64,000 nucleotides of DNA, taken from contig JBJLCC010000037.1 in the NCBI GenBank assembly GCA_045567855.1, forward strand, positions 34,625-98,624. Reading direction: 5' to 3'. The number at the start of each line of letters is the position of its first letter. Position 1 is the stretch's first letter. Shown here in pieces: positions 23,244-31,110 of the stretch. The notes below the pieces were generated by a model. The model worked only from the letters and a program-made list of their open reading frames with translations, had not been told where the DNA came from and made no database searches. Source of the stretch: Candidatus Poseidoniales archaeon (GTDB lineage: Archaea > Thermoplasmatota > Poseidoniia > MGIII > CG-Epi1). A program made the position numbers and the translations under genes.

Positions 23244-26200
23244 CTAGAATAAGCTTAGACTATCTGAATTGGCCATTCTATCTAGAGTTTCAGTAACTAG
23301 TGAAGTAGGGCCAAGCACTTCTTTAGCATGTAAAAACATGCATCTTATTTCATTTCTTTCCAGACCTTCAAGTGATGGCATAATGTTAGATCTAATAACT
23401 CTGTCCAAAGCCAGTTCAGGTCCATATTTTTTAATTGAATTAAATATAGTGACCATCGAATCAATTAATAATGCAGGTCCAATTTTTCTAAATGTACGTA
23501 CTCCGAGTGGAGCTTCATCGCCACGTTTTGGTGGTTCACTTGGTTTCAAAAAGTTTACTAATTTTTCATGGCAAGCATACATGCTTCCATCTTCATCATA
23601 GAAGTCAAACTTCTTTTGAGGGAAGTGGCGACAAGTTTCTCCAAATTTCCACAAGCCATCGCCTTCGGGCCTGTCAGGCACTAAACCTAATTTCTTTAGT
23701 TTGAAATAAACAAAAACAGGCATACGATTGTATTCATCTTCAGGTAGTGGCAAACCTATTTCAACGAAAGCAAAACGCCTCATTAGAGCGAAACCAACGT
23801 TAAACAAGGTATTCTTATCTTGAGTATTCATTGTTCCAATAATTCTAAATTCTGGAGGCATCATGAACGGAGCGCCCCCGGTTTCTTTATGAGTTAGTAA
23901 CGGTTGTTTATCTCGATATTCAAAAACTGTAAATAATTTACCAAACGCTTCATCAATATTAGCTCTGTTAAACTCATCAATTACTAAGTAGTGGGGCCTA
24001 CCTCTTTCACGGATTGATTTTTCACATAATTTGGCAGCTTCTGCGACATATCCATCTTTGAAGTAATATCCTCCAGAATCATCGGGTGAAATACCGCCAA
24101 TAACGTCGAAATTCGACCATTCGGCATTAGCTGTAACGATAGTGTAATTTGGTGCCATACTTCCGTTTGGCTGCTTTATTTCTCCACATAATTTGGTTAA
24201 CAAAATATTGGATAAAGCAGTCTTACCAGTCCCTGGTTCTCCGAATAGCATAATATTCTTACCTGAAGTTAAATGAGTAATAACTTCGTCCACAGTCTCT
24301 TGCGTTGTTGAATATGCCTCAGCTATTTCATGGAAATCAACCTCATAATCCACTTCTATTGCTTGTCTTATTTCAACAGATTGATCTACAGTATCCATCA
24401 TTGTCTTTTCAACTAACTCAAGATCCGGTGTATGTTCAGTAGTGTGTTTAAGTTCGACTTGAAATTCGTCTCCATATTCATTCATTAAAAATTCCATAGC
24501 TGAGTCTACAGTCCATTCGGGCATCACTTTTTGTTCACCTGGAACAGATGGTGCAAAAGGATCTTGTCGGTTTGGCATAGCTGCATCACTAGCAATAGAT
24601 AATTCACGCAGTTTTTGAGAACCAAATTTGTAGCTTAGCCAAAATCCTACAGCAGTAACCAATGCAGATAATAACAGATTAAACTGTGCTTCACCATCAT
24701 CAGGCCATTCGATATCATTTCCACCTAAGACTACTGGAGCGATGAAAGTTCCAAATAGTGCGAATATTCCAGAGGCAAATATTACGAAGTAAGCAACTCC
24801 CATTGAACCAGATTCTCCTCTTCGTTTTCGATAAAAGGAGACCATTCCGACAGTTGCCACTCCTAGGGCCATTACAGTCAGGGTTGTATCATTTTCATCA
24901 AATACTAATGCACCTTCGTCACTGGTTACAACATTGAAAACTAGAATTGCAAATTGTAAGCCCAGACCGGATAGAATCATTGAGAAGTATTTAGCCTCAT
25001 CAATATCATTAATTTTAGTATTTGATATCAACCAATTTGCAACGCCCAAGAAAAGAAGCGTTGCAGAAAGTAATACCATCATATTACTTCCATTTCCTAA
25101 GTCAAGGGCAACAATTTCTAAATTTTGATACCCTATTTGTTGACATTGTGAAATATCTTCTTCAGCAACATTATTATCTATCAAATTTTGGAGGTAAGAT
25201 TGTGGTAATTGTGTGTTACATATAGTGTAAGGGCCTAAAGAGTAATTGTAGAAAACAGAGGAGAATAAAGATGCGGCAGCGAGTATGAAAATGTAGAATG
25301 TCAAGCTAGGAGGGTCACTTAGTGATCTTCCTAAAGACGTTCGTATTAGTAAAACACTTCCTGAAACAATTAGACCTATAGTGCAAACAAAACCGATAGT
25401 TAGAGGAAGAGCAAATATTACATTGTTGAGCAACCCGCCATATATTGCAAATAGAATAGTTTCGAATATTGCGAATCCCAAAATAGGAAGTACAATTGAT
25501 GTGTTTGGTATTTTATTGTAAATGTAGAACGCCGTCGTAATAAGTAGCAAATTTAAAAGCATAAAAGAGAAAGTACTTATAAATTTCATATCTACAGGAC
25601 ACCCAAATCTCTCGTCGTCGTCTACTTGACGACTTTCGTCTCTGTCTGTAAGTAAAATATCGAAGCCTTGTTCATCAGATTTTACAAAATCGATGTACCT
25701 CTGGCTATCCCATATTTCACAGTTGAACGGCTCCCCAGAAAATGGTTCAGAGGTACCTCTTCCAATAAGCGTACTATTGCCATCTGGTGTTGGTTTGTTG
25801 TAAGGGTCTGATGGCATATATCCATCTAATGATTCTTGAGAAGTAGTAGGGACAGAAGACACTGCAAGGCCAATAACTCCAGATAATAGTAAAATTGAAA
25901 TTACAACTATAGTCAAAGGAGCAATATAGTTAATCTCACCTTTAGACAAGAAAATTCTGTCGAGCTTTTTGCTAATATCTGCAAAGAAAGTTCCTAATTG
26001 GGGAATATTATCAATAAATTTAGATAATGCATTGTCGGTTTTTTCATCGGTCGGATTTGTTTCTGTAGCATTCAAAGTTTCTTCAAGCAGCCTTTCTTCT
26101 TCACTTAATTCTTTTACATCTTCAGAGCCTTTCTCATCAGTTGGTAAACCATCTAATTTCATACCTGCGATATCTTCAGAGATATCGCCTGAATCCTTAG

Positions 26201-26321
26201 TCTCAGCTTTCTTTTCCGGTGTTTCTTTGACGGCCGGTTCAAAATCAGATCCACACATGCTGCATGTAAGAGCGTTATCATCCTCTTCCATTTCACATAC
26301 AGGACAGACCTTCATAGACAT
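23244..26321 (-). CDS. fusion protein: N-terminal Zn ribbon, acidic linker, ~9-TM membrane domain with ~100-aa Cys-containing extracytoplasmic loop, C-terminal McrB-like AAA+ (AAA_5) NTPase
   Basis: CPVCE..(9)..CSMCG; multiple hydrophobic helices aa ~125-570; IMLFGEPGTGKT (Walker A), HYLVIDEFNRANIDEAFGKLF (DExNRA Walker B of the McrB/MoxR clade), IIGTMNTQD (sensor 1). Confidence 0.8.
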   Translation of the reverse strand: MSMKVCPVCEMEEDDNALTCSMCGSDFEPAVKETPEKKAETKDSGDISEDIAGMKLDGLPTDEKGSEDVKELSEEERLLEETLNATETNPTDEKTDNALSKFIDNIPQLGTFFADISKKLDRIFLSKGEINYIAPLTIVVISILLLSGVIGLAVSSVPTTSQESLDGYMPSDPYNKPTPDGNSTLIGRGTSEPFSGEPFNCEIWDSQRYIDFVKSDEQGFDILLTDRDESRQVDDDERFGCPVDMKFISTFSFMLLNLLLITTAFYIYNKIPNTSIVLPILGFAIFETILFAIYGGLLNNVIFALPLTIGFVCTIGLIVSGSVLLIRTSLGRSLSDPPSLTFYIFILAAASLFSSVFYNYSLGPYTICNTQLPQSYLQNLIDNNVAEEDISQCQQIGYQNLEIVALDLGNGSNMMVLLSATLLFLGVANWLISNTKINDIDEAKYFSMILSGLGLQFAILVFNVVTSDEGALVFDENDTTLTVMALGVATVGMVSFYRKRRGESGSMGVAYFVIFASGIFALFGTFIAPVVLGGNDIEWPDDGEAQFNLLLSALVTAVGFWLSYKFGSQKLRELSIASDAAMPNRQDPFAPSVPGEQKVMPEWTVDSAMEFLMNEYGDEFQVELKHTTEHTPDLELVEKTMMDTVDQSVEIRQAIEVDYEVDFHEIAEAYSTTQETVDEVITHLTSGKNIMLFGEPGTGKTALSNILLTKLCGEIKQPNGSMAPNYTIVTANAEWSNFDVIGGISPDDSGGYYFKDGYVAEAAKLCEKSIRERGRPHYLVIDEFNRANIDEAFGKLFTVFEYRDKQPLLTHKETGGAPFMMPPEFRIIGTMNTQDKNTLFNVGFALMRRFAFVEIGLPLPEDEYNRMPVFVYFKLKKLGLVPDRPEGDGLWKFGETCRHFPQKKFDFYDEDGSMYACHEKLVNFLKPSEPPKRGDEAPLGVRTFRKIGPALLIDSMVTIFNSIKKYGPELALDRVIRSNIMPSLEGLERNEIRCMFLHAKEVLGPTSLVTETLDRMANSDSLSLF

Positions 26322-26391
26322 TCACAGACTACTCCATTAAAATGTTATCTCATGATTTTAAGCATGACTGACTTGAGAGAAAATCAAAAAC

Positions 26392-26399
26392 TTTAAATA
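26392..26399 (+). promoter_or_regulatory. TATA-like box ~25 nt upstream of the 26424 ATG (probably leaderless transcript)
   Basis: TTTAAATA in the divergent intergenic region 26322-26423. Confidence 0.3.
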
Positions 26400-26423
26400 G
26401 GAGGTCTGGTAAAATCAACTCCT

Positions 26424-28796
26424 ATGAAAGAGCAATTACAACAGATACAAGCCGTAGCAGTTGTTACTTTTCTTTGTATTTTAATTTCTGTAAATAGTAC
26501 TGGTGACTACGGGAAATGGTTTGTGATTGATGGTGCTCGTGAAACCGTAGATCCAGAAACTGGCAATGTTACACAATACAATACTTTCCAGTACCATTAT
26601 TATTTGGATTCATATTTACTTACAGATACTACAGGAAACAGTGAATCAGTACCATATGATAGTCAAGATTGCGTTTATTGTCTAAATAAGGTTTCTTCAT
26701 CTGATAACGCGAAAATGACTGCGTATGCAGCAGGACTGTTGGCATTAGTAGTGGCTTACATGGCCAATAATGCAGTTAGTAGTCTTCATCAAAATACACT
26801 TAGAAGTGCACTTAAAAATTTAAAATATTTTGCGATTATAGTACTTATAGTTGGATTTTTGTCTACTTTTTTATTTTACACTACTTGGTCTGAATCGCTC
26901 ATACAAGATGAGGTAGCTCTTACTTCAACAAATGCAGAAGGCTCAGATAGTAACAAAGAATTAGGGTGTATCAAAAATTTACTTACTTTCTTCGGTGAAG
27001 GGACTTGTGAGGAGTATGTTCAATTACAAGCCGGTGAAGCAGATAGAGTAACAGGAAGACTGGGTCCAGTTTCTTGGAGTCCAGGCATTGGATTTTTTAT
27101 TGTTTTGATAGGAACTGCACTTACTGGTGGTGGAACGCTTTACATCTTAGGTAATCTGGACGAAGAATGGCAAGCAATATTGAAAAAACAAGAATTAATA
27201 GAGAGGCAACAGCAAATTCATGACGGCGAATTAGAAAAGAGTAAAGAATTAATGCAAGAGTTTGATGATACCGAAGAAAGATTGAAAGAAGCTGAAAAAA
27301 GAATTGAAGATGTACGAGCTTCTACTAATGACATTGATTATGACGGTATTGAGGATTTGGAGAATGAGCTTGACAGAATAACAGCATTAAATCAAAGTGT
27401 TAATACGCTAAATAATTCTTTAGAGTCGAAATTGAAAACTGCTCGAATTGCTACCTCAGAAGTTGAGAAGAGAGCTAGAATGGCTGAAAAAGAGTTGCAG
27501 GATGACCTTTCAGCAAAAAACAACTTAGAAAAAGAGATAGAGGACTTGAGAACTAAACATGAAAACGATATGCGTCTTAGTGATAGGATGACTAGGGAAA
27601 TTGGGTCTCTAAGGACAATGAGTGATGAAGCAGAGACTAAAGCCGTTGATGCTGAGAGAAAGTTAAAATTAGAAAAACCAGATACAGTTAATGCTTTGGA
27701 ATCTTATGATTCAGTCAAGGCCTCTTATGATAAAACTGTCGGAGAGAAGAATAATTTAGAGAAAGAGATCATGGAATTGGAGCAACATACTTTGGAAGCT
27801 AATGAAAGGGAAAAATCAGCTCTTGCAGAAAGAAACGAGGCAATAAACAGAAGAAAAGAATTGGATAGAGAGGTAAAATTAATGGAAAAGAATAAAAAAA
27901 GAATTAATGATAAGTTTACTACATTAACTACAAATTTGGAAAAGGCTAAGAAAGAGCTCAATGATGCTCGAGAAAAAGCATCTCTTACTATGAACGAGCT
28001 TGATATTGAAAGACAAACTATTATTGAGCTTGAGCAGAATAGTGAGCAATTCAGACAAAAAGAGAATGAAATTCTTGGTATGACTGACTCACTTAAAGAA
28101 TTGCAGGAACAAGTGGATAGTCAAAGAGATTCAAATAAGAAAATCGAGGATGAATTGAAGATTGAGGTAAAAAGTAAGGAAAAGACACAAAAAGATTTGA
28201 CTGCTTTGGAGAATGCATCACAACAAGTAAGTAAAGTAATGCAGACACTCAAGAAACAATTTGAGGATGCAAAAGCTGAATTAAATATTAGCATTGATGA
28301 TCGCAACAAAGCCGAAAGAGTACTTGAAGCTGAAAAAACAGAACATGAGAAGCTAAAAGAGGATCTAGAGTTTCTACAGGGAACTACTATAGGTAGTGAA
28401 GAAGGAACTGAACGTAAAATTAAGGCTATGGAAGTAGAGATTCCAAAAGAAAAAGAGTTAGCTGGTGAAATGAATGCGGAGGCGCAAAAGCTTTCGGATA
28501 GTAATAAGGAGTTAGAAGAAAAAATTAAGGAAGCGCGTATTGAAAGTTTAAGTAAGCCTGAAAATACAACAGATGTAAATAATGCGACCGGAGCTTCGAT
28601 TGGTACTAGCCTTATAGTAAAGAATTTGACAAAAGAAACTGAACATACTTTTGAATTGGTTAATGCAGAAGATGCAAATATTCCGCAAGGTAAAATACCT
28701 TTGTCAAACCCAATAGGTAAGTCTCTTGAGGGTTCAAAAGAAGGCGATGAAGTTAAAGTGGGACCAACGACATTCAAAGTTCTCAAAGTAAATTAA
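26424..28796 (+). CDS. membrane-anchored giant coiled-coil protein with C-terminal GreA/GreB-like (FKBP-fold) domain
   Basis: 4 predicted TM in the first 240 aa; ~450 aa heptad-rich Glu/Lys sequence; C-terminus TFELVNAEDANIPQGKIPLSNPIGKSLEGSKEGDEVKVGPTTFKVLKV aligns with GreA [46 protein letters not shown]. Confidence 0.8.
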   Translation: MKEQLQQIQAVAVVTFLCILISVNSTGDYGKWFVIDGARETVDPETGNVTQYNTFQYHYYLDSYLLTDTTGNSESVPYDSQDCVYCLNKVSSSDNAKMTAYAAGLLALVVAYMANNAVSSLHQNTLRSALKNLKYFAIIVLIVGFLSTFLFYTTWSESLIQDEVALTSTNAEGSDSNKELGCIKNLLTFFGEGTCEEYVQLQAGEADRVTGRLGPVSWSPGIGFFIVLIGTALTGGGTLYILGNLDEEWQAILKKQELIERQQQIHDGELEKSKELMQEFDDTEERLKEAEKRIEDVRASTNDIDYDGIEDLENELDRITALNQSVNTLNNSLESKLKTARIATSEVEKRARMAEKELQDDLSAKNNLEKEIEDLRTKHENDMRLSDRMTREIGSLRTMSDEAETKAVDAERKLKLEKPDTVNALESYDSVKASYDKTVGEKNNLEKEIMELEQHTLEANEREKSALAERNEAINRRKELDREVKLMEKNKKRINDKFTTLTTNLEKAKKELNDAREKASLTMNELDIERQTIIELEQNSEQFRQKENEILGMTDSLKELQEQVDSQRDSNKKIEDELKIEVKSKEKTQKDLTALENASQQVSKVMQTLKKQFEDAKAELNISIDDRNKAERVLEAEKTEHEKLKEDLEFLQGTTIGSEEGTERKIKAMEVEIPKEKELAGEMNAEAQKLSDSNKELEEKIKEARIESLSKPENTTDVNNATGASIGTSLIVKNLTKETEHTFELVNAEDANIPQGKIPLSNPIGKSLEGSKEGDEVKVGPTTFKVLKVN

Positions 28797-28831: not shown

Positions 28832-30535
28832 ATGAACCATACCTTACCAAAAGATAGTAGCCAAATGATGGACTGGTCTTGGGATAAATATATTCCTTTT
28901 TTTGATTTTTTAGAAAACTCAGGTTTAACTACAAAAAACATCTCCGACTGGATGAAGTATTGGTCCGACTTATCGGAGCTTATAGGTGAAGTTGGAACTT
29001 CGGTATATGTTTCTACTACTGTGGACACTACTGATGAAGAAGCTAAGGTTAGGTACCATAGATTTCTTGAAGATATTAGTGAGAATGTAAGTTCTAGAAA
29101 TCAAATTTTAAAAATTAAATTTTTAGAGTCCAAATTGTCTCCTGATAATTTTGAAATTCCTCTGAGAGGAATGAAAAGCGAGGTTGAGTTATTTTCAACA
29201 GATAATCTTCCTCTTTTGACTTCCGATGCGAAACTATCCAAAGAATATGATGCAATTATAGGTTCCCAAACTGTAAATTGGGAGGATGAAGAGGTCACAC
29301 TTACTCGCTTATCGCCAGTCATGTTAGAAACAAATAGAAATAAGCGTGAGAACGCTTGGAAATTAGCTTCTGCCAGGCGACTTGAAGATAGAAGCGAAAT
29401 AAACGAAATCTGGAAGAAAATTCTTAAGATTCGCATGTCTATTGCAGATAATTCCGGTTATGATGACTATCGAGCCTGGAGATGGGAATATCTTAAAAGA
29501 TTCGATTATACTCCCGATGATTGCTTAATATTTCACGAATCGATTGAGAAGATTATTGTGCCTTTAGCCAATAAATTACTTCAAAAGCGGAAGGAAGCAC
29601 TTGGTCTCGAAAAACTAAAACCATGGGATTTAAGTGTAGATATATTTGGAAGAGATGCTTTAGTTCCTTTTGAGGAAGCTAGTGAATTAGAGGAAAAATG
29701 TCATAATATATTTAGTTCAGTTGATTCTGATTTGGGTAATCATTTTGGAATTATGAGAGAGAAGGGCTTATTAGATTTAGGCAATCGTAAAGGTAAGGCT
29801 CCTGGGGGTTACTGTACTGAATATCCATACCAGCGTCTACCTTTCATTTTTATGAACGCAGTTGGGACACATAGTGATGTTCAGACAATGATTCATGAGG
29901 GCGGGCATGCATTCCATGTATTTGAATCTGCAGATTTACCATACACTAGTCAGAGAGACGTTGGGATGGAATTTGCTGAGGTGGCTTCAATGGCTATGGA
30001 GCTTCTAGCCTCTCCTTTTTTGACTGAGAATGTTGGCGGTTTTTATTCTGAAGAGGAATCTGCAAGGGCAAGAATTGAACATTTGGAAAAAGTTATTATG
30101 TTTTGGCCGTATATGGCAGTTGTAGATGCATTTCAGCATTGGGCCTATACAAATCCTGCAGAGGCGTTGGATCCAAATAACTGTGATGAAGAATGGACTA
30201 AACTTTGGAAAAGATTCCAAATGTCTGATCACATAGATTACACAGGATGTGAAGACATAATAGCTACAGGTTGGCATAATAAATTACATATTTATCATGT
30301 TCCATTCTACTATGTTGAATATGGAATGGCTCAGCTAGGTGCAATACAAATATGGGGCAATTCGTTAAGTGATGAAAAGAAAGCCATTCAAAATTATAAA
30401 TCTGCTTTGGGTCTTGGTGGTAATGCAACACTTCCTGAGTTATATGAAGCTGCAGGCGTTAAATTTAGCTTTGACGATAAGACTCTAGAGTACGCAGCTA
30501 GTTTAATAGAGAAACAAATTAAGGAATTATCATGA
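28832..30535 (+). CDS. pepF: oligoendopeptidase F (M3B)
   Basis: HEGGHAFH zinc motif, 567 aa. Confidence 0.85.
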   Translation: MNHTLPKDSSQMMDWSWDKYIPFFDFLENSGLTTKNISDWMKYWSDLSELIGEVGTSVYVSTTVDTTDEEAKVRYHRFLEDISENVSSRNQILKIKFLESKLSPDNFEIPLRGMKSEVELFSTDNLPLLTSDAKLSKEYDAIIGSQTVNWEDEEVTLTRLSPVMLETNRNKRENAWKLASARRLEDRSEINEIWKKILKIRMSIADNSGYDDYRAWRWEYLKRFDYTPDDCLIFHESIEKIIVPLANKLLQKRKEALGLEKLKPWDLSVDIFGRDALVPFEEASELEEKCHNIFSSVDSDLGNHFGIMREKGLLDLGNRKGKAPGGYCTEYPYQRLPFIFMNAVGTHSDVQTMIHEGGHAFHVFESADLPYTSQRDVGMEFAEVASMAMELLASPFLTENVGGFYSEEESARARIEHLEKVIMFWPYMAVVDAFQHWAYTNPAEALDPNNCDEEWTKLWKRFQMSDHIDYTGCEDIIATGWHNKLHIYHVPFYYVEYGMAQLGAIQIWGNSLSDEKKAIQNYKSALGLGGNATLPELYEAAGVKFSFDDKTLEYAASLIEKQIKELS

Positions 30536-31110
30536 GTAATCATTCTGTTGAGAGTTCATTTTCCTCAGATCACAGCTGCTCTAATTGTAGCCCGTCAGAT
30601 AATTCAGGTATAAAAATCAAGCCAGACAGTAAGAGTCCAATTCTGAAAGGACTTCCAGTTCAAGATGAATTTGCACCAAATTCTATATGTTTTGGATGCG
30701 GCCCTTCAAATGAGGATGGTTTACAGCTTAAGTCTTATCGTTCAGACGGCGGTCTTAATGCAGAATTTGAGTGTGAAGAAAAACACCAAGCTTTTCCGGG
30801 TGTGATAAGTGGTGGTATTATTGGTTCTCTGATTGACTGCCATGGTAATTGGTCTGCAGCCATAGCAATAATGGACAAGAATAATTGGGAAAAACCACGC
30901 TGTACAGTAACTGCTCAGTATGAAATTAAGTTAAAGCGTCCAACACCTTTGGGAATAAAGTTAAATTTGAGCAGTAGAGTATTAGCTTTACAAGAGGATC
31001 GGGCTGAAGTTATAATTGAGTTAAAAGCAGATGGTAAAACATGTGCAACAGGCCGAGGCTTATTCGTTGCTGTAAAGGAAGGCCATCCAGCTTATCATCG
31101 TTGGCATTGA
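30532..31110 (+). CDS. hotdog-fold thioesterase (PaaI/4HBT-like) with N-terminal Cys cluster
   Basis: CFGCGPSNEDGLQL, GGIIGSLIDCHGNWSAAIA. Confidence 0.65.
   Translation: MSNHSVESSFSSDHSCSNCSPSDNSGIKIKPDSKSPILKGLPVQDEFAPNSICFGCGPSNEDGLQLKSYRSDGGLNAEFECEEKHQAFPGVISGGIIGSLIDCHGNWSAAIAIMDKNNWEKPRCTVTAQYEIKLKRPTPLGIKLNLSSRVLALQEDRAEVIIELKADGKTCATGRGLFVAVKEGHPAYHRWH

What the first reader, a model, noticed from the sequence alone, without database searches (positions are those of the whole stretch)
23244..28796. Divergent two-gene module: McrB-like membrane NTPase plus GreA-C/coiled-coil membrane protein sharing a 102-bp promoter region
The two largest non-surface ORFs of the window are transcribed divergently from a short AT-rich intergenic region (26322-26423) with TATA-like elements on both sides. 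Both proteins are membrane-anchored with very large cytoplasmic domains (AAA+ motor and long coiled coil). This recalls motor-plus-stalk pairings in membrane remodelling and segregation systems. The pairing itself is a candidate novel system.
Basis: inference. Interest (0 to 1): 0.7.

Follow-up and report, generated by a model that had tools for sequence, protein, structure and literature searches.

The report
Membrane motor and rod protein pair
Two back-to-back genes, adjacent wherever sequence allowed a check in Marine Group III archaea, encode a membrane-embedded GTP-driven ring motor of the McrB (restriction-enzyme) type and a membrane-anchored, fixed-length rod protein ending in a bacterial GreA-like knob; they probably act together in an unknown housekeeping job at the cell membrane, which would be a new use for this motor family.

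Summary
Gene A (23244-26321, minus strand) encodes a zinc ribbon, about 10 transmembrane helices and a McrB-type AAA+ GTPase with every catalytic motif intact. Gene B (26424-28796, plus strand) encodes a four-helix membrane domain with a predicted claudin-like fold, a roughly 400-residue coiled coil and a GreA-type C-terminal domain. They diverge from two conserved archaeal TATA boxes.

The pair is adjacent and divergent in 25 of 25 related loci that keep upstream DNA, and in 5 of 5 loci reached from B. It survives replacement of both flanks in one deep lineage. The wider region is also syntenic, so adjacency alone is moderate evidence.

New context:
- The same genomes carry a paralogue, A2. 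It is followed by an unannotated partner, C2, in the position McrC holds next to McrB.
- The A2-C2 arrangement recurs in Thermoplasmata next to TPR-EVE-McrB-like proteins. It looks ancestral, and A-B looks like a Marine Group III derivative.

The near-invariant AAA+ core, the housekeeping neighbourhood, and the absence of a nuclease, of defence-library hits and of viral copies all argue against a restriction role. The B coiled coil has no indel across its length.

Best reading, at 0.4 confidence: a lineage-specific, non-defence membrane complex of motor plus rod. The function is unknown. I rate it a new variant of a known kind.

The parts
23244..26321 (-). Gene A: zinc ribbon, acidic linker, about 10 transmembrane helices and a McrB-type AAA+ GTPase (1025 aa; the real start is probably M3 at 26315).
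   Evidence: ORF. Domains. Orthologues begin MKVCPVC.
26253..26306 (-). N-terminal zinc ribbon, CPVC-x10-CSMC (residues 6-23).
   Evidence: The cysteines are at least 90% conserved among the aligned orthologues. Paralogue A2 gives a weak PF13240 hit.
24582..25931 (-). Polytopic membrane domain (residues ~131-580, about 10 helices), with two extracellular loops carrying invariant cysteines and an EPFNCEIWD / TDxNxxGxVDxDERxGCP motif.
   Evidence: Hydropathy. The model gives helices at 133-580 with pLDDT 70-90 over residues 120-400. Invariant columns. No specific fold match.
23742..24329 (-). McrB-type AAA+ GTPase core (residues 665-860): Walker A GEPGTGKT 694-701 (24219-24242), Walker B YLVIDEFNRA 778-787 (23961-23990), signature MNTQDKN 831-837 (23811-23831), ALMRRF 845-850.
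   Evidence: A profile of the orthologues against the PDB matches McrB 6hz4/6ut6/7vsr at E 1e-19, with the motifs aligned. Orthologues average 94% identity here.
23247..23741 (-). C-terminal lid and extension (residues 861-1025) ending in the subfamily tail ...PSLEGLER...SDSLSLF.
   Evidence: This region is shared with A2, with Thermoplasmata TPR-EVE-2xAAA proteins and with a few Planctomycetota proteins.
26336..26343 (-). TATA box serving A (ATTTTAAT on the minus strand), preceded by a conserved CAGTTAACA.
   Evidence: Conserved in 21 aligned loci, about 24 nt upstream of the MKVCPVC start codon.
26392..26399 (+). TATA box serving B (TTTAAATA), preceded by AAAC.
   Evidence: Conserved in 21 aligned loci, 28 nt upstream of the B start codon.
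26424..28796 (+). Gene B: claudin-fold four-helix membrane domain, fixed-length coiled coil and GreA-like C-terminal domain (790 aa).
26424..27173 (+). Four-helix membrane domain with an extracellular beta-sheet built from both loops (residues 1-250). Cys182 and Cys195 are invariant.
   Evidence: Model pLDDT is mostly 80-90. Foldseek against the PDB matches claudin-9, -3, -4 and -19, TARP gamma-5 and gamma-2, and DUOXA1 at E 3e-5 to 1e-3, with TM-score (normalised to target) up to 0.63. No Pfam claudin hit.
27174..28334 (+). Cytoplasmic coiled coil (residues 251-637; helices 222-300, 308-417 and 431-637). It contains the invariant motif HENDMRLSDRMTREIGSLR (residues 379-397, nt 27558-27614) and a helix break at residues 418-430 (27675-27713).
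   Evidence: Model. No indel between residues 256 and 656 in 34 orthologues down to 32% identity. Conservation.
28335..28793 (+). GreA-like module: a flexible stretch plus helix 681-705 (aligning to the GreA coiled coil) and the beta-rich GreA C-terminal domain (residues 721-790).
   Evidence: PF01272. A profile of the orthologues aligns B 642-792 to E. coli GreA residues 13-155 at E 6e-8. Foldseek matches GreA, GreB, Gfh1 and Rnk.

Best explanation
A and B are two subunits of a housekeeping, non-defence membrane complex specific to Marine Group III archaea.

Shown: A is a McrB-clade AAA+ GTPase with all catalytic motifs intact. Its usual N-terminal DNA-reader domain is replaced by a zinc ribbon and a polytopic membrane domain of about 10 helices. 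B is a four-helix membrane protein with a predicted claudin-like fold. Its last helix runs straight into a cytoplasmic coiled coil of about 400 residues and invariant length, which ends in a GreA-type domain. The two genes are transcribed from conserved back-to-back promoters and stay together wherever it can be checked.

Inferred: A assembles, like McrB, into a hexameric ring held under the membrane. B is its lineage-specific partner. McrB rings need a partner that docks into the ring to trigger GTP hydrolysis, and A has no McrC-like gene next to it. I therefore propose that B docks onto or into the A ring, either through its Gre-like terminal finger and knob or through the invariant DRMTREIGSLR patch. 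GTP hydrolysis would then move, position or release the B rods. That would couple events sensed by the extracellular loops of both proteins to a cytoplasmic target held one rod-length from the membrane, such as an envelope, division-site or nucleoid/transcription-machinery anchor.

The complex may also draw on the paralogue A2 and its partner C2, since the A and A2 AAA+ cores are 79% identical.
For: - McrB membership of the motor: the profile hits only McrB structures, with Walker A, Walker B, NxxD and RRF aligned (motifs invariant; role of NxxD from PMC11090510).
- No McrC or nuclease gene flanks A.
- Pair conservation: 25 of 25 loci with upstream DNA, 22 of them from GTDB species-representative genomes, and 5 of 5 starting from B. 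The pair is retained when both flanks are replaced.
- Both families were found only in the same lineage.
- Both promoters are conserved.
- Predicted topology puts the AAA+ domain and the coiled coil with its Gre domain on the cytoplasmic side.
- Housekeeping character: the AAA+ core averages 94% identity while the linker averages 39%. The neighbourhood holds tRNA synthetase, ELP3 and peptidase genes. There are no PADLOC family hits and no copies in viral contigs.
- Ruler-like rod: zero indels across about 400 residues, plus an invariant 19-residue patch inside the coil.
- Precedent for McrB motors recruited to cell-structural roles with a coiled-coil partner: PcdA with DivIVA (PMC10602043).
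Against:
- The surrounding 10-gene block is itself largely syntenic across Marine Group III. The M3 peptidase is almost as constant a neighbour of B as A is, so adjacency is only moderately informative.
- The two core promoters are separate, with a variable spacer and no clear shared operator.
- A could instead use C2, the partner of its paralogue, in trans.
- The GreA-like acidic finger tip is not conserved in B.
- The AAA+ part of the A model is low-confidence.
- Whether Marine Group II or other relatives carry the pair is untested, because the pattern scan was strict.
Confidence: 0.4

Rival explanations
1. A and B are functionally independent neighbours kept together by the general synteny of a narrow clade. 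A works with its paralogue A2 and with C2, the protein in the position McrC holds next to McrB. B is an unrelated membrane-skeleton or tether protein.
For: The whole block TyrRS-DUF309-g192-M3 peptidase-B-A-(peroxiredoxin)-(AsnS-like)-ELP3-M24 is conserved in most loci. The promoters are separate, with a variable spacer. The same genomes carry A2-C2. The C2 family is also the downstream partner of the closest non-Marine-Group-III relatives in Thermoplasmata, so the ancestral partner of this AAA+ subfamily is C2 and not B. The A and A2 AAA+ cores are 79% identical, which fits a shared partner.
Against: The pair stays together in the deep lineage where both flanks were exchanged for two-component-system and OPT transporter genes. 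The junction on the far side of A is variable while the A-B junction never is. Both genes are lineage-specific inventions with the same distribution.
Confidence: 0.3
2. The module is a membrane-anchored anti-virus system derived from McrBC (type IV restriction-like or abortive infection). A senses infection at the envelope, and B or C2 delivers the effect.
For: A belongs to the McrB clade. The closest relatives outside Marine Group III carry an EVE modified-base reader typical of McrBC systems. C2 has a PE...ExK-like motif in Marine Group III.
Against: No nuclease or other effector domain sits in or next to A or B. No PADLOC family hit. The genes lie in a conserved housekeeping context in every genome sampled, not in variable islands. 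The AAA+ core is nearly invariant, unlike fast-evolving defence genes. Neither family appears in viral contigs. The putative ExK of C2 is not conserved in the Thermoplasmata homologues, and C2 has no detectable similarity to McrC or to any PDB chain.
Confidence: 0.12
3. B is a membrane-tethered transcription factor. Its GreA-type domain binds the funnel / secondary-channel rim of the archaeal RNA polymerase and holds transcription at a fixed distance from the membrane. A is a remodeller that loads or releases it.
For: The PF01272 domain scores above its gathering threshold and is the only detectable sequence homology of B. The last 150 residues align to the whole of GreA. All characterised members of this domain family (GreA, GreB, Gfh1, Rnk) bind RNA polymerase (descriptions; established knowledge).
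Against: Archaea have no bacterial RNA polymerase beta-prime subunit and use TFS instead of Gre factors (established knowledge). The acidic finger tip needed for Gre activity is not conserved, and that stretch is modelled as disordered. No transcription genes lie in the neighbourhood of the pair.
Confidence: 0.1

Closest known systems
McrB, the GTPase subunit of McrBC type IV restriction (E. coli 6hz4/6ut6/7vsr; T. gammatolerans 6ut3)
   Same: Same AAA+ clade. Walker A, Walker B, the NxxD signature (NTQD here, NTAD in E. coli) and the RRF motif all align. It is the best and essentially the only solved relative.
   Different: The N-terminal DNA-reader domain is replaced by a zinc ribbon and about 10 transmembrane helices. 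There is no adjacent McrC nuclease. The gene sits in a conserved housekeeping neighbourhood and evolves very slowly, and its conserved neighbour is a coiled-coil membrane protein.
PcdA of Staphylococcus aureus (McrB-family NTPase recruited to division-plane selection, working with coiled-coil DivIVA and FtsZ; PMC10602043)
   Same: A McrB-family motor without a nuclease partner, taken out of defence into a cell-structural role and functionally tied to a coiled-coil protein.
   Different: PcdA is soluble, keeps EVE domains, has degraded Walker motifs and has lost the lid. A is membrane-embedded with fully intact motifs and lid. The partnership with B is only inferred here.
CoCoNuT / CoCoPALM systems (McrB-like GTPases fused to coiled coils or to FtsB-like transmembrane-plus-coiled-coil segments; PMC11090510)
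   Same: They link a McrB-type GTPase with long coiled coils and, in CoCoPALM, with a membrane anchor.
   Different: Those GTPases carry the shortened NxD signature, are bacterial, have McrC homologues and nucleases, and the coiled coil is fused to the GTPase. A has canonical NxxD, is archaeal, has no nuclease, and its coiled coil lies in a separate, divergently transcribed protein.
GreA / GreB / Gfh1 / Rnk (bacterial factors that bind the RNA polymerase secondary channel)
   Same: The C-terminal domain of B is a true PF01272 domain by sequence and by predicted fold. The preceding helices align to the Gre coiled coil.
   Different: B is five times longer, membrane-anchored and archaeal, and it lacks the conserved acidic finger tip. 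No bacterial-type RNA polymerase exists in the host.
Claudin / TARP / PMP22 superfamily (eukaryotic four-helix membrane proteins with an extracellular beta-sheet)
   Same: Same predicted topology and fold: four transmembrane helices, N and C termini inside the cell, and a beta-sheet formed by both extracellular loops.
   Different: No sequence-level membership, no W-GLW-C-C motif, and the conserved disulphide pair is in loop 2 rather than loop 1. B carries a 540-residue cytoplasmic extension. The similarity rests on a predicted model only.
Paralogous module A2-C2 of the same genomes, and the Thermoplasmata TPR-EVE-2xAAA+ plus C2-like operons
   Same: Same AAA+ subfamily, including the C-terminal tail. 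A2 has the same zinc ribbon, membrane domain and AAA+ architecture as A.
   Different: A2 and the Thermoplasmata proteins are followed on the same strand by a C2-family protein, in the position McrC holds next to McrB. A has no such downstream gene and is instead paired divergently with B.

Membership tests
McrB-family AAA+ GTPase (gene A) | Walker A GxxGxGKT and Walker B hhhhDExN | tested here: met
   GEPGTGKT at residues 694-701 and YLVIDEFNRAN at 778-788. Both are invariant in 37 orthologues and align to E. coli McrB.
McrB-family AAA+ GTPase (gene A) | NxxD GTPase signature (MNTADRS in E. coli) followed by the ALRRRF arginine motif | tested here: met
   MNTQDKN at residues 831-837 and ALMRRF at 845-850, invariant. 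The feature is defined in PMC11090510.
McrB-family AAA+ GTPase (gene A) | Closest solved relatives are McrB proteins | tested here: met
   Five of the six PDB profile hits at E <= 0.01 are McrB, with E 1e-19 to 6e-16. NCBIfam matches McrB only partially: 66 bits against an equivalog cut-off of 637.
McrB-family AAA+ GTPase (gene A) | Hexamer formation and partner-stimulated GTP hydrolysis | not testable with these tools
   Needs biochemistry or multimer modelling. The AAA+ part of the monomer model is low-confidence.
McrBC type IV restriction system (the pair as a system) | An adjacent McrC subunit with a PD-(D/E)xK nuclease | tested here: not met
   No such gene flanks A in the window or in the related loci that keep flanking DNA. 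B has no nuclease domain.
McrBC type IV restriction system (the pair as a system) | An N-terminal DNA or modified-base reader domain on McrB | tested here: not met
   It is replaced by a zinc ribbon, an acidic linker and a membrane domain of about 10 helices. The EVE reader is present only in Thermoplasmata relatives.
McrBC type IV restriction system (the pair as a system) | Defence-island or variable genomic context and recognition by defence-system models | tested here: not met
   Conserved housekeeping synteny, no PADLOC family hit and no copies in viral contigs.
GreA/GreB transcript-cleavage factors (gene B) | C-terminal globular domain PF01272 | tested here: met
   37.8 bits against a gathering score of 26.9. 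PDB profile hit to 1grj. Foldseek matches to GreA, GreB, Gfh1 and Rnk.
GreA/GreB transcript-cleavage factors (gene B) | A protein of about 160 residues with a short N-terminal coiled-coil finger bearing the conserved acidic tip (D41/E44 in E. coli GreA) | tested here: not met
   B is 790 aa and membrane-anchored. The stretch aligned to the finger tip (about residues 660-680) is poorly conserved apart from E672 and is modelled as disordered.
GreA/GreB transcript-cleavage factors (gene B) | Binds the bacterial RNA polymerase secondary channel | not testable with these tools
   The host is an archaeon (Marine Group III), and archaea lack the bacterial enzyme (established knowledge).
Claudin / PMP22 / TARP superfamily (N-terminal domain of B) | Four-helix bundle with an extracellular beta-sheet from both loops and termini inside the cell | tested here: met
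   Met at the level of a predicted fold only. Model pLDDT is mostly 80-90. Foldseek matches claudins, TARPs and DUOXA1 at E down to 3e-5, with TM-score (normalised to target) up to 0.63.
Claudin / PMP22 / TARP superfamily (N-terminal domain of B) | Sequence membership (PF00822 / PF13903) and the W-GLW-C-C signature in loop 1 | tested here: not met
   No claudin family hit even at E <= 10. The loop-1 cysteines are not conserved; the invariant pair Cys182/Cys195 is in loop 2.
CoCoNuT / CoCoPALM McrBC-like systems | NxD (shortened) GTPase signature, a coiled coil fused to the GTPase, and associated nucleases | tested here: not met
   A has NxxD. The coiled coil is in a separate protein. No nuclease is present. 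Definition from PMC11090510.
SMC / Rad50-like proteins (gene B) | ABC-type ATPase head domains at both ends of the coiled coil | tested here: not met
   Only weak hits to the coiled-coil regions of the SMC and Rad50 models (35 bits against a cut-off of 567). No head domains.

The most novel reading that the evidence does not exclude
A McrB-type GTPase ring has been rebuilt into a membrane-embedded machine. Its activating 'plunger' is no longer a McrC nuclease. It is the GreA-like finger and knob at the end of a claudin-fold, ruler-length rod protein. GTP hydrolysis at the membrane would then mechanically couple the cell surface to a cytoplasmic target a fixed distance away. That would be a previously unknown kind of archaeal membrane-cytoskeleton or positioning system, and the first claudin-fold protein assigned a role in an archaeon.
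Probability: 0.15. Interest if true: 0.85.

Novelty: new variant of a known kind. Interest (0 to 1): 0.62.

Why it matters
McrB-type GTPases are known almost only as restriction motors, and PcdA is the single well-studied case of one recruited to cell biology. This is a second, independent and much more radical case. The motor has intact catalytic motifs, is embedded in the membrane, and is found in nearly all sampled genomes of an abundant, uncultured ocean archaeal lineage. It is tied to a protein that combines three modules never seen together: a claudin-like fold, a coiled coil of invariant length, and a bacterial Gre domain. If the two act together, the pair would give a concrete molecular handle on how these wall-poor planktonic archaea organise their membrane and cytoplasm. 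It would also show how a McrB ring can be driven by something other than McrC. The paralogue and the Thermoplasmata relatives give a testable evolutionary series, from an EVE-reader restriction-like module to a membrane machine.

Tried and rejected
- The afdb50 library was not available, so I could not look for other prokaryotic claudin-fold proteins.
- C2 could not be identified as McrC. It has no Pfam hit, no PADLOC hit and no PDB hit at E <= 10. I noticed a PE...ExK motif and then set it aside, because the Thermoplasmata homologues have D..I at those positions.
- PADLOC gave only weak matches (best E 4e-6, to LmuB models), all lying on P-loop, coiled-coil or low-complexity stretches, for A and B.
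- The sigma-70 promoter scan was at chance level and is irrelevant for an archaeon. I used conservation of the archaeal TATA boxes instead.
- Scans of viral contigs for A and B found nothing. A metagenome scan with the divergent A2-like protein P0200 also found nothing.
- Literature searches for claudin-like proteins in archaea and for descriptions of these genes in Marine Group II/III papers found nothing relevant.
- I could not decide whether the B rod is an extended coiled coil or a GreA/SMC-like antiparallel hairpin with its tip at residues 418-430.
- I considered SMC/Rad50-like and MoxR-like labels (the JGI annotation reads 'MoxR-like ATPase') and rejected both. The motifs are McrB-type and B has no ATPase heads.

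Full report
**1. The observation**

The window carries two long ORFs at exactly the reported coordinates: A at 23244-26321 on the minus strand (1025 aa) and B at 26424-28796 on the plus strand (790 aa). They are 102 bp apart and transcribed divergently. Neither can be a chance ORF. The protein search returned 52 relatives of A (49-90% identity) and 109 of B (26-100% coverage), the closest with E = 0. All come from marine metagenomes or from MAGs named Marine Group III, Poseidoniales or Poseidoniia.

The spacer has 32.4% GC against 36.5% for the window, so it is only mildly AT-rich. The sigma-70 scan was at chance level and does not apply to an archaeon. An alignment of the intergenic regions of 21 orthologous loci shows two conserved archaeal TATA boxes:
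- CAGTTAACATTTTAA serves A. In the window its TATA box lies at 26336-26343 on the minus strand.
- AAACTTTAAATAG serves B, with the TATA box at 26392-26399.

Each lies about 24-28 nt upstream of its start codon, which implies leaderless transcripts. The DNA between the boxes varies in sequence, and the intergenic distance ranges from 82 to 124 bp. These are therefore two back-to-back core promoters, not one shared regulatory element. Orthologues of A begin MKVCPVC, so the true start is probably M3 at 26315.

**2. Protein A**

- Pfam finds AAA_5 at residues 689-850 (E 3e-19). NCBIfam's best match is the McrB equivalog, but only partially (66 bits against a cut-off of 637).
- A profile of 37 orthologues searched against all PDB sequences finds essentially only McrB: E. 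coli 6hz4/6ut6/7vsr at E 1e-19 and T. gammatolerans 6ut3.
- Walker A (GEPGTGKT), Walker B (YLVIDEFNRAN), the McrB signature (MNTQDKN here, MNTADRS in E. coli) and ALMRRF (ALRRRF in E. coli) are all in register.
- The signature is the canonical NxxD form. [quoted passage not shown]
- In place of a DNA-reader domain, the N-terminal 580 residues hold a zinc ribbon (C6..C23), an acidic disordered linker and about ten transmembrane helices. Two loops carry invariant cysteines and a DxNxxGxVDxDE-like motif. In some orthologues one loop has a 130-250 residue D/N/G-rich insertion, which marks it as extracellular.
- With an even number of helices, the zinc ribbon and the AAA+ domain both lie in the cytoplasm.
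- The membrane domain has no informative structural match.
- Among orthologues the AAA+ core averages 94% identity (minimum 80%). The membrane domain averages 64% and the linker 39%.

**3. Protein B**

- The only sequence-level domain is GreA_GreB C-terminal (PF01272, residues 725-789, above the gathering score).
- A profile of 34 orthologues aligns B residues 642-792 to essentially the whole of E. coli GreA (residues 13-155, E 6e-8).
- The AlphaFold model has mean pLDDT 70, mostly 80-90 over the first 250 residues. It shows four transmembrane helices with a beta-sheet made from both extracellular loops. The fourth helix continues unbroken into the cytoplasm. Then come helices 222-300, 308-417 and 431-637, a disordered stretch at 638-680, helix 681-705 and a beta domain at 729-789.
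- Foldseek against the PDB splits the matches cleanly. The C-terminus matches GreA, GreB, Gfh1 and Rnk (E down to 1e-5). The N-terminal domain matches claudin-9, -3, -4 and -19, TARP gamma-5 and gamma-2, DUOXA1 and a de novo 'claudin fold' design (E 3e-5 to 1e-3; TM-score normalised to target up to 0.63).
- No Pfam claudin hit appears even at E <= 10, and the claudin loop-1 signature is absent. The invariant cysteine pair (C182/C195) is in loop 2. The claudin likeness is thus a fold-level prediction, not family membership.
- Two features of the coiled coil stand out. There is not one indel between residues 256 and 656 in 34 sequences down to 32% identity. The most conserved part of the whole protein lies inside the coil: the motif HE(N/E)DMxLSDRMTREIGSLR at 379-397, followed by a conserved helix break at 418-430.
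- The acidic finger tip that defines active Gre factors is not conserved.

**4. Conservation of the pair**

A scan of one genome per GTDB species returned 60 loci, all from Marine Group III / Poseidoniia MAGs or single-cell genomes. Every locus with an A orthologue and upstream DNA carries B directly upstream on the opposite strand. That is 25 of 25 loci, of which 22 come from the GTDB species-representative scan and 3 from metagenome or read-assembly contigs. The five loci without B are cut at the contig end. Starting from B homologues instead, including the 32%-identity group, A is again the divergent neighbour in 5 of 5 loci.

There is a caveat. The block TyrRS-DUF309-g192-M3 peptidase-B-A-(peroxiredoxin)-(AsnS-like)-ELP3-M24 is largely syntenic across the clade, so part of the adjacency is background. 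Two observations go beyond background:
- The junction on the far side of A is variable while the A-B junction never is.
- In a deep, higher-GC lineage both flanks are replaced, yet the pair stays intact. Downstream of A lie a CheY-like regulator and an OPT transporter; downstream of B lie a response regulator and a histidine kinase. A sister genome of that lineage keeps the old flank on the B side.

Neither family occurs in viral contigs.

**5.

The same genomes carry a paralogue, A2, with a zinc ribbon, a membrane domain and a McrB-like AAA+ domain. It is 41-50% identical to A overall, 79% in the AAA+ core and 30% in the membrane domain. A2 is never next to B. It is followed 4 bp downstream by C2, a conserved protein of about 690 residues with no Pfam, PADLOC or PDB match.

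An exhaustive HMM search of 1.84 billion representative proteins shows the next relatives of this AAA+ subfamily. They share the lid and the distinctive C-terminal tail. They are Thermoplasmata proteins with TPR repeats, an EVE domain and two tandem AAA_5 modules, plus a few Planctomycetota proteins. In Thermoplasmata these genes are again followed on the same strand by a homologue of C2 (hhalign probability 100, E 1e-54; BLASTP 6e-75).

The likely history follows:
- An EVE-reader McrB-like gene with a C2 partner, occupying the position McrC holds next to McrB, was ancestral in Thermoplasmatota.
- A further duplicate, A, lost the adjacent C2 and became paired with the lineage-specific B.

The window itself contains neither A2 nor C2.

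**6. How it most likely works**

Shown: the motor's family and intact active site; the membrane topology by prediction; the architecture of B; the conserved back-to-back promoters; and the persistent pairing.

Inferred: A forms a McrB-like hexamer under the membrane. Such rings need a partner docking into the ring for GTP hydrolysis, and A has none adjacent. B is therefore the best candidate, through either its Gre-like finger and knob or the invariant coil patch. The invariant rod length suggests a spacer or ruler role.

The near-invariant AAA+ core, the housekeeping neighbourhood, and the lack of any nuclease or defence signature argue for a cell-structural or positioning role, not restriction. 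PcdA with DivIVA is a precedent for a McrB motor recruited to such a role.

I put this at 0.4. The rivals are:
- Independent neighbours, with A using C2 in trans: 0.3.
- A membrane-anchored defence system: 0.12.
- A membrane-tethered RNA-polymerase-binding factor: 0.1.

**7. Comparison and verdict**

A passes every sequence test for the McrB family. The pair fails the tests that define a McrBC restriction system: no McrC, no reader domain and no island context. B contains a true Gre C-terminal domain but is not a Gre factor. It has a predicted claudin-like fold but is not a claudin family member. The system differs from CoCoNuT and CoCoPALM in its signature (NxxD against NxD), its host domain, its lack of nucleases and its separate coiled-coil protein.

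I found no description of these genes in the searchable literature. Public annotations read 'AAA family ATPase', 'MoxR-like ATPase', 'GreA/GreB family elongation factor' or 'hypothetical'.

I classify it as a new variant of a known kind. It is of real but unproven interest, because the functional link and the function itself rest on genomic inference only.

Noticed in passing
L029-L063 (e.g. L036:7001-9841 and L036:9843-11936): The same Marine Group III genomes carry a paralogous two-gene operon. A2 has a zinc ribbon, a membrane domain and a McrB-like AAA+ domain. C2 follows 4 bp downstream: about 690 aa, highly conserved, with no Pfam, PADLOC or PDB match.
   Followed up: partly
L064:7001-11974, L065:7001-11965, L066:973-5937: Thermoplasmata encode TPR + EVE + two tandem McrB-like AAA+ modules, followed by a C2 homologue of 532-546 aa (hhalign probability 100). 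This looks like the ancestral form of the module. An Arf/Ras-like small GTPase and a NosD/beta-helix protein of 1600-1800 aa lie just upstream.
   Followed up: partly
L019-L025 (A orthologues; proteins P0037-P0041), equivalent to window A residues ~370-380 (about 25180-25215): Some orthologues of A carry a 130-250 residue insertion rich in D/N/G/E, with repeated DxDxDG-like (calcium-binding-like) motifs. It sits in the loop between the fifth and sixth transmembrane helices, which marks that loop as extracellular.
   Followed up: no
L003, L027, L067, L068, L071: In a deep, higher-GC Marine Group III lineage the A-B pair is framed by two-component-system genes. A CheY-like response regulator lies directly downstream of A on the same strand. 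A response regulator plus a histidine kinase lie downstream of B on its strand.
   Followed up: partly
window 26315-26321: The first ATG of A (26321) is probably not the real start. Orthologues begin at the equivalent of M3 (MKVCPVC), and the conserved TATA box sits about 24 nt upstream of that codon.
   Followed up: yes
window 27189-28391 (B residues 256-656): The coiled coil of B has no insertion or deletion in 34 orthologues down to 32% identity. It also contains the most conserved stretch of the protein (DRMTREIGSLR). Whether the rod is extended or an antiparallel hairpin could not be resolved.
   Followed up: partly
window 28121-28786 (-), 23269-23601 (+), 25969-26340 (+): These antisense ORFs of 110-221 aa lie entirely (25969-26340 all but its last 19 nt) inside genes A and B. 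They were not searched for homologues; I read them as by-products of the skewed codon composition of the coiled-coil and acidic regions.
   Followed up: no
window 30532-31110 (+): A 192-aa ORF with no Pfam match is conserved in synteny (69-88% identity) between the M3 peptidase and a DUF309 gene across Marine Group III loci.
   Followed up: no
The word-indexed protein search with A did not list the A2 paralogues, although tblastn finds them at 41-50% identity. This is probably an effect of the candidate cap, and it is a reminder that absence from that search is weak evidence.
   Followed up: no
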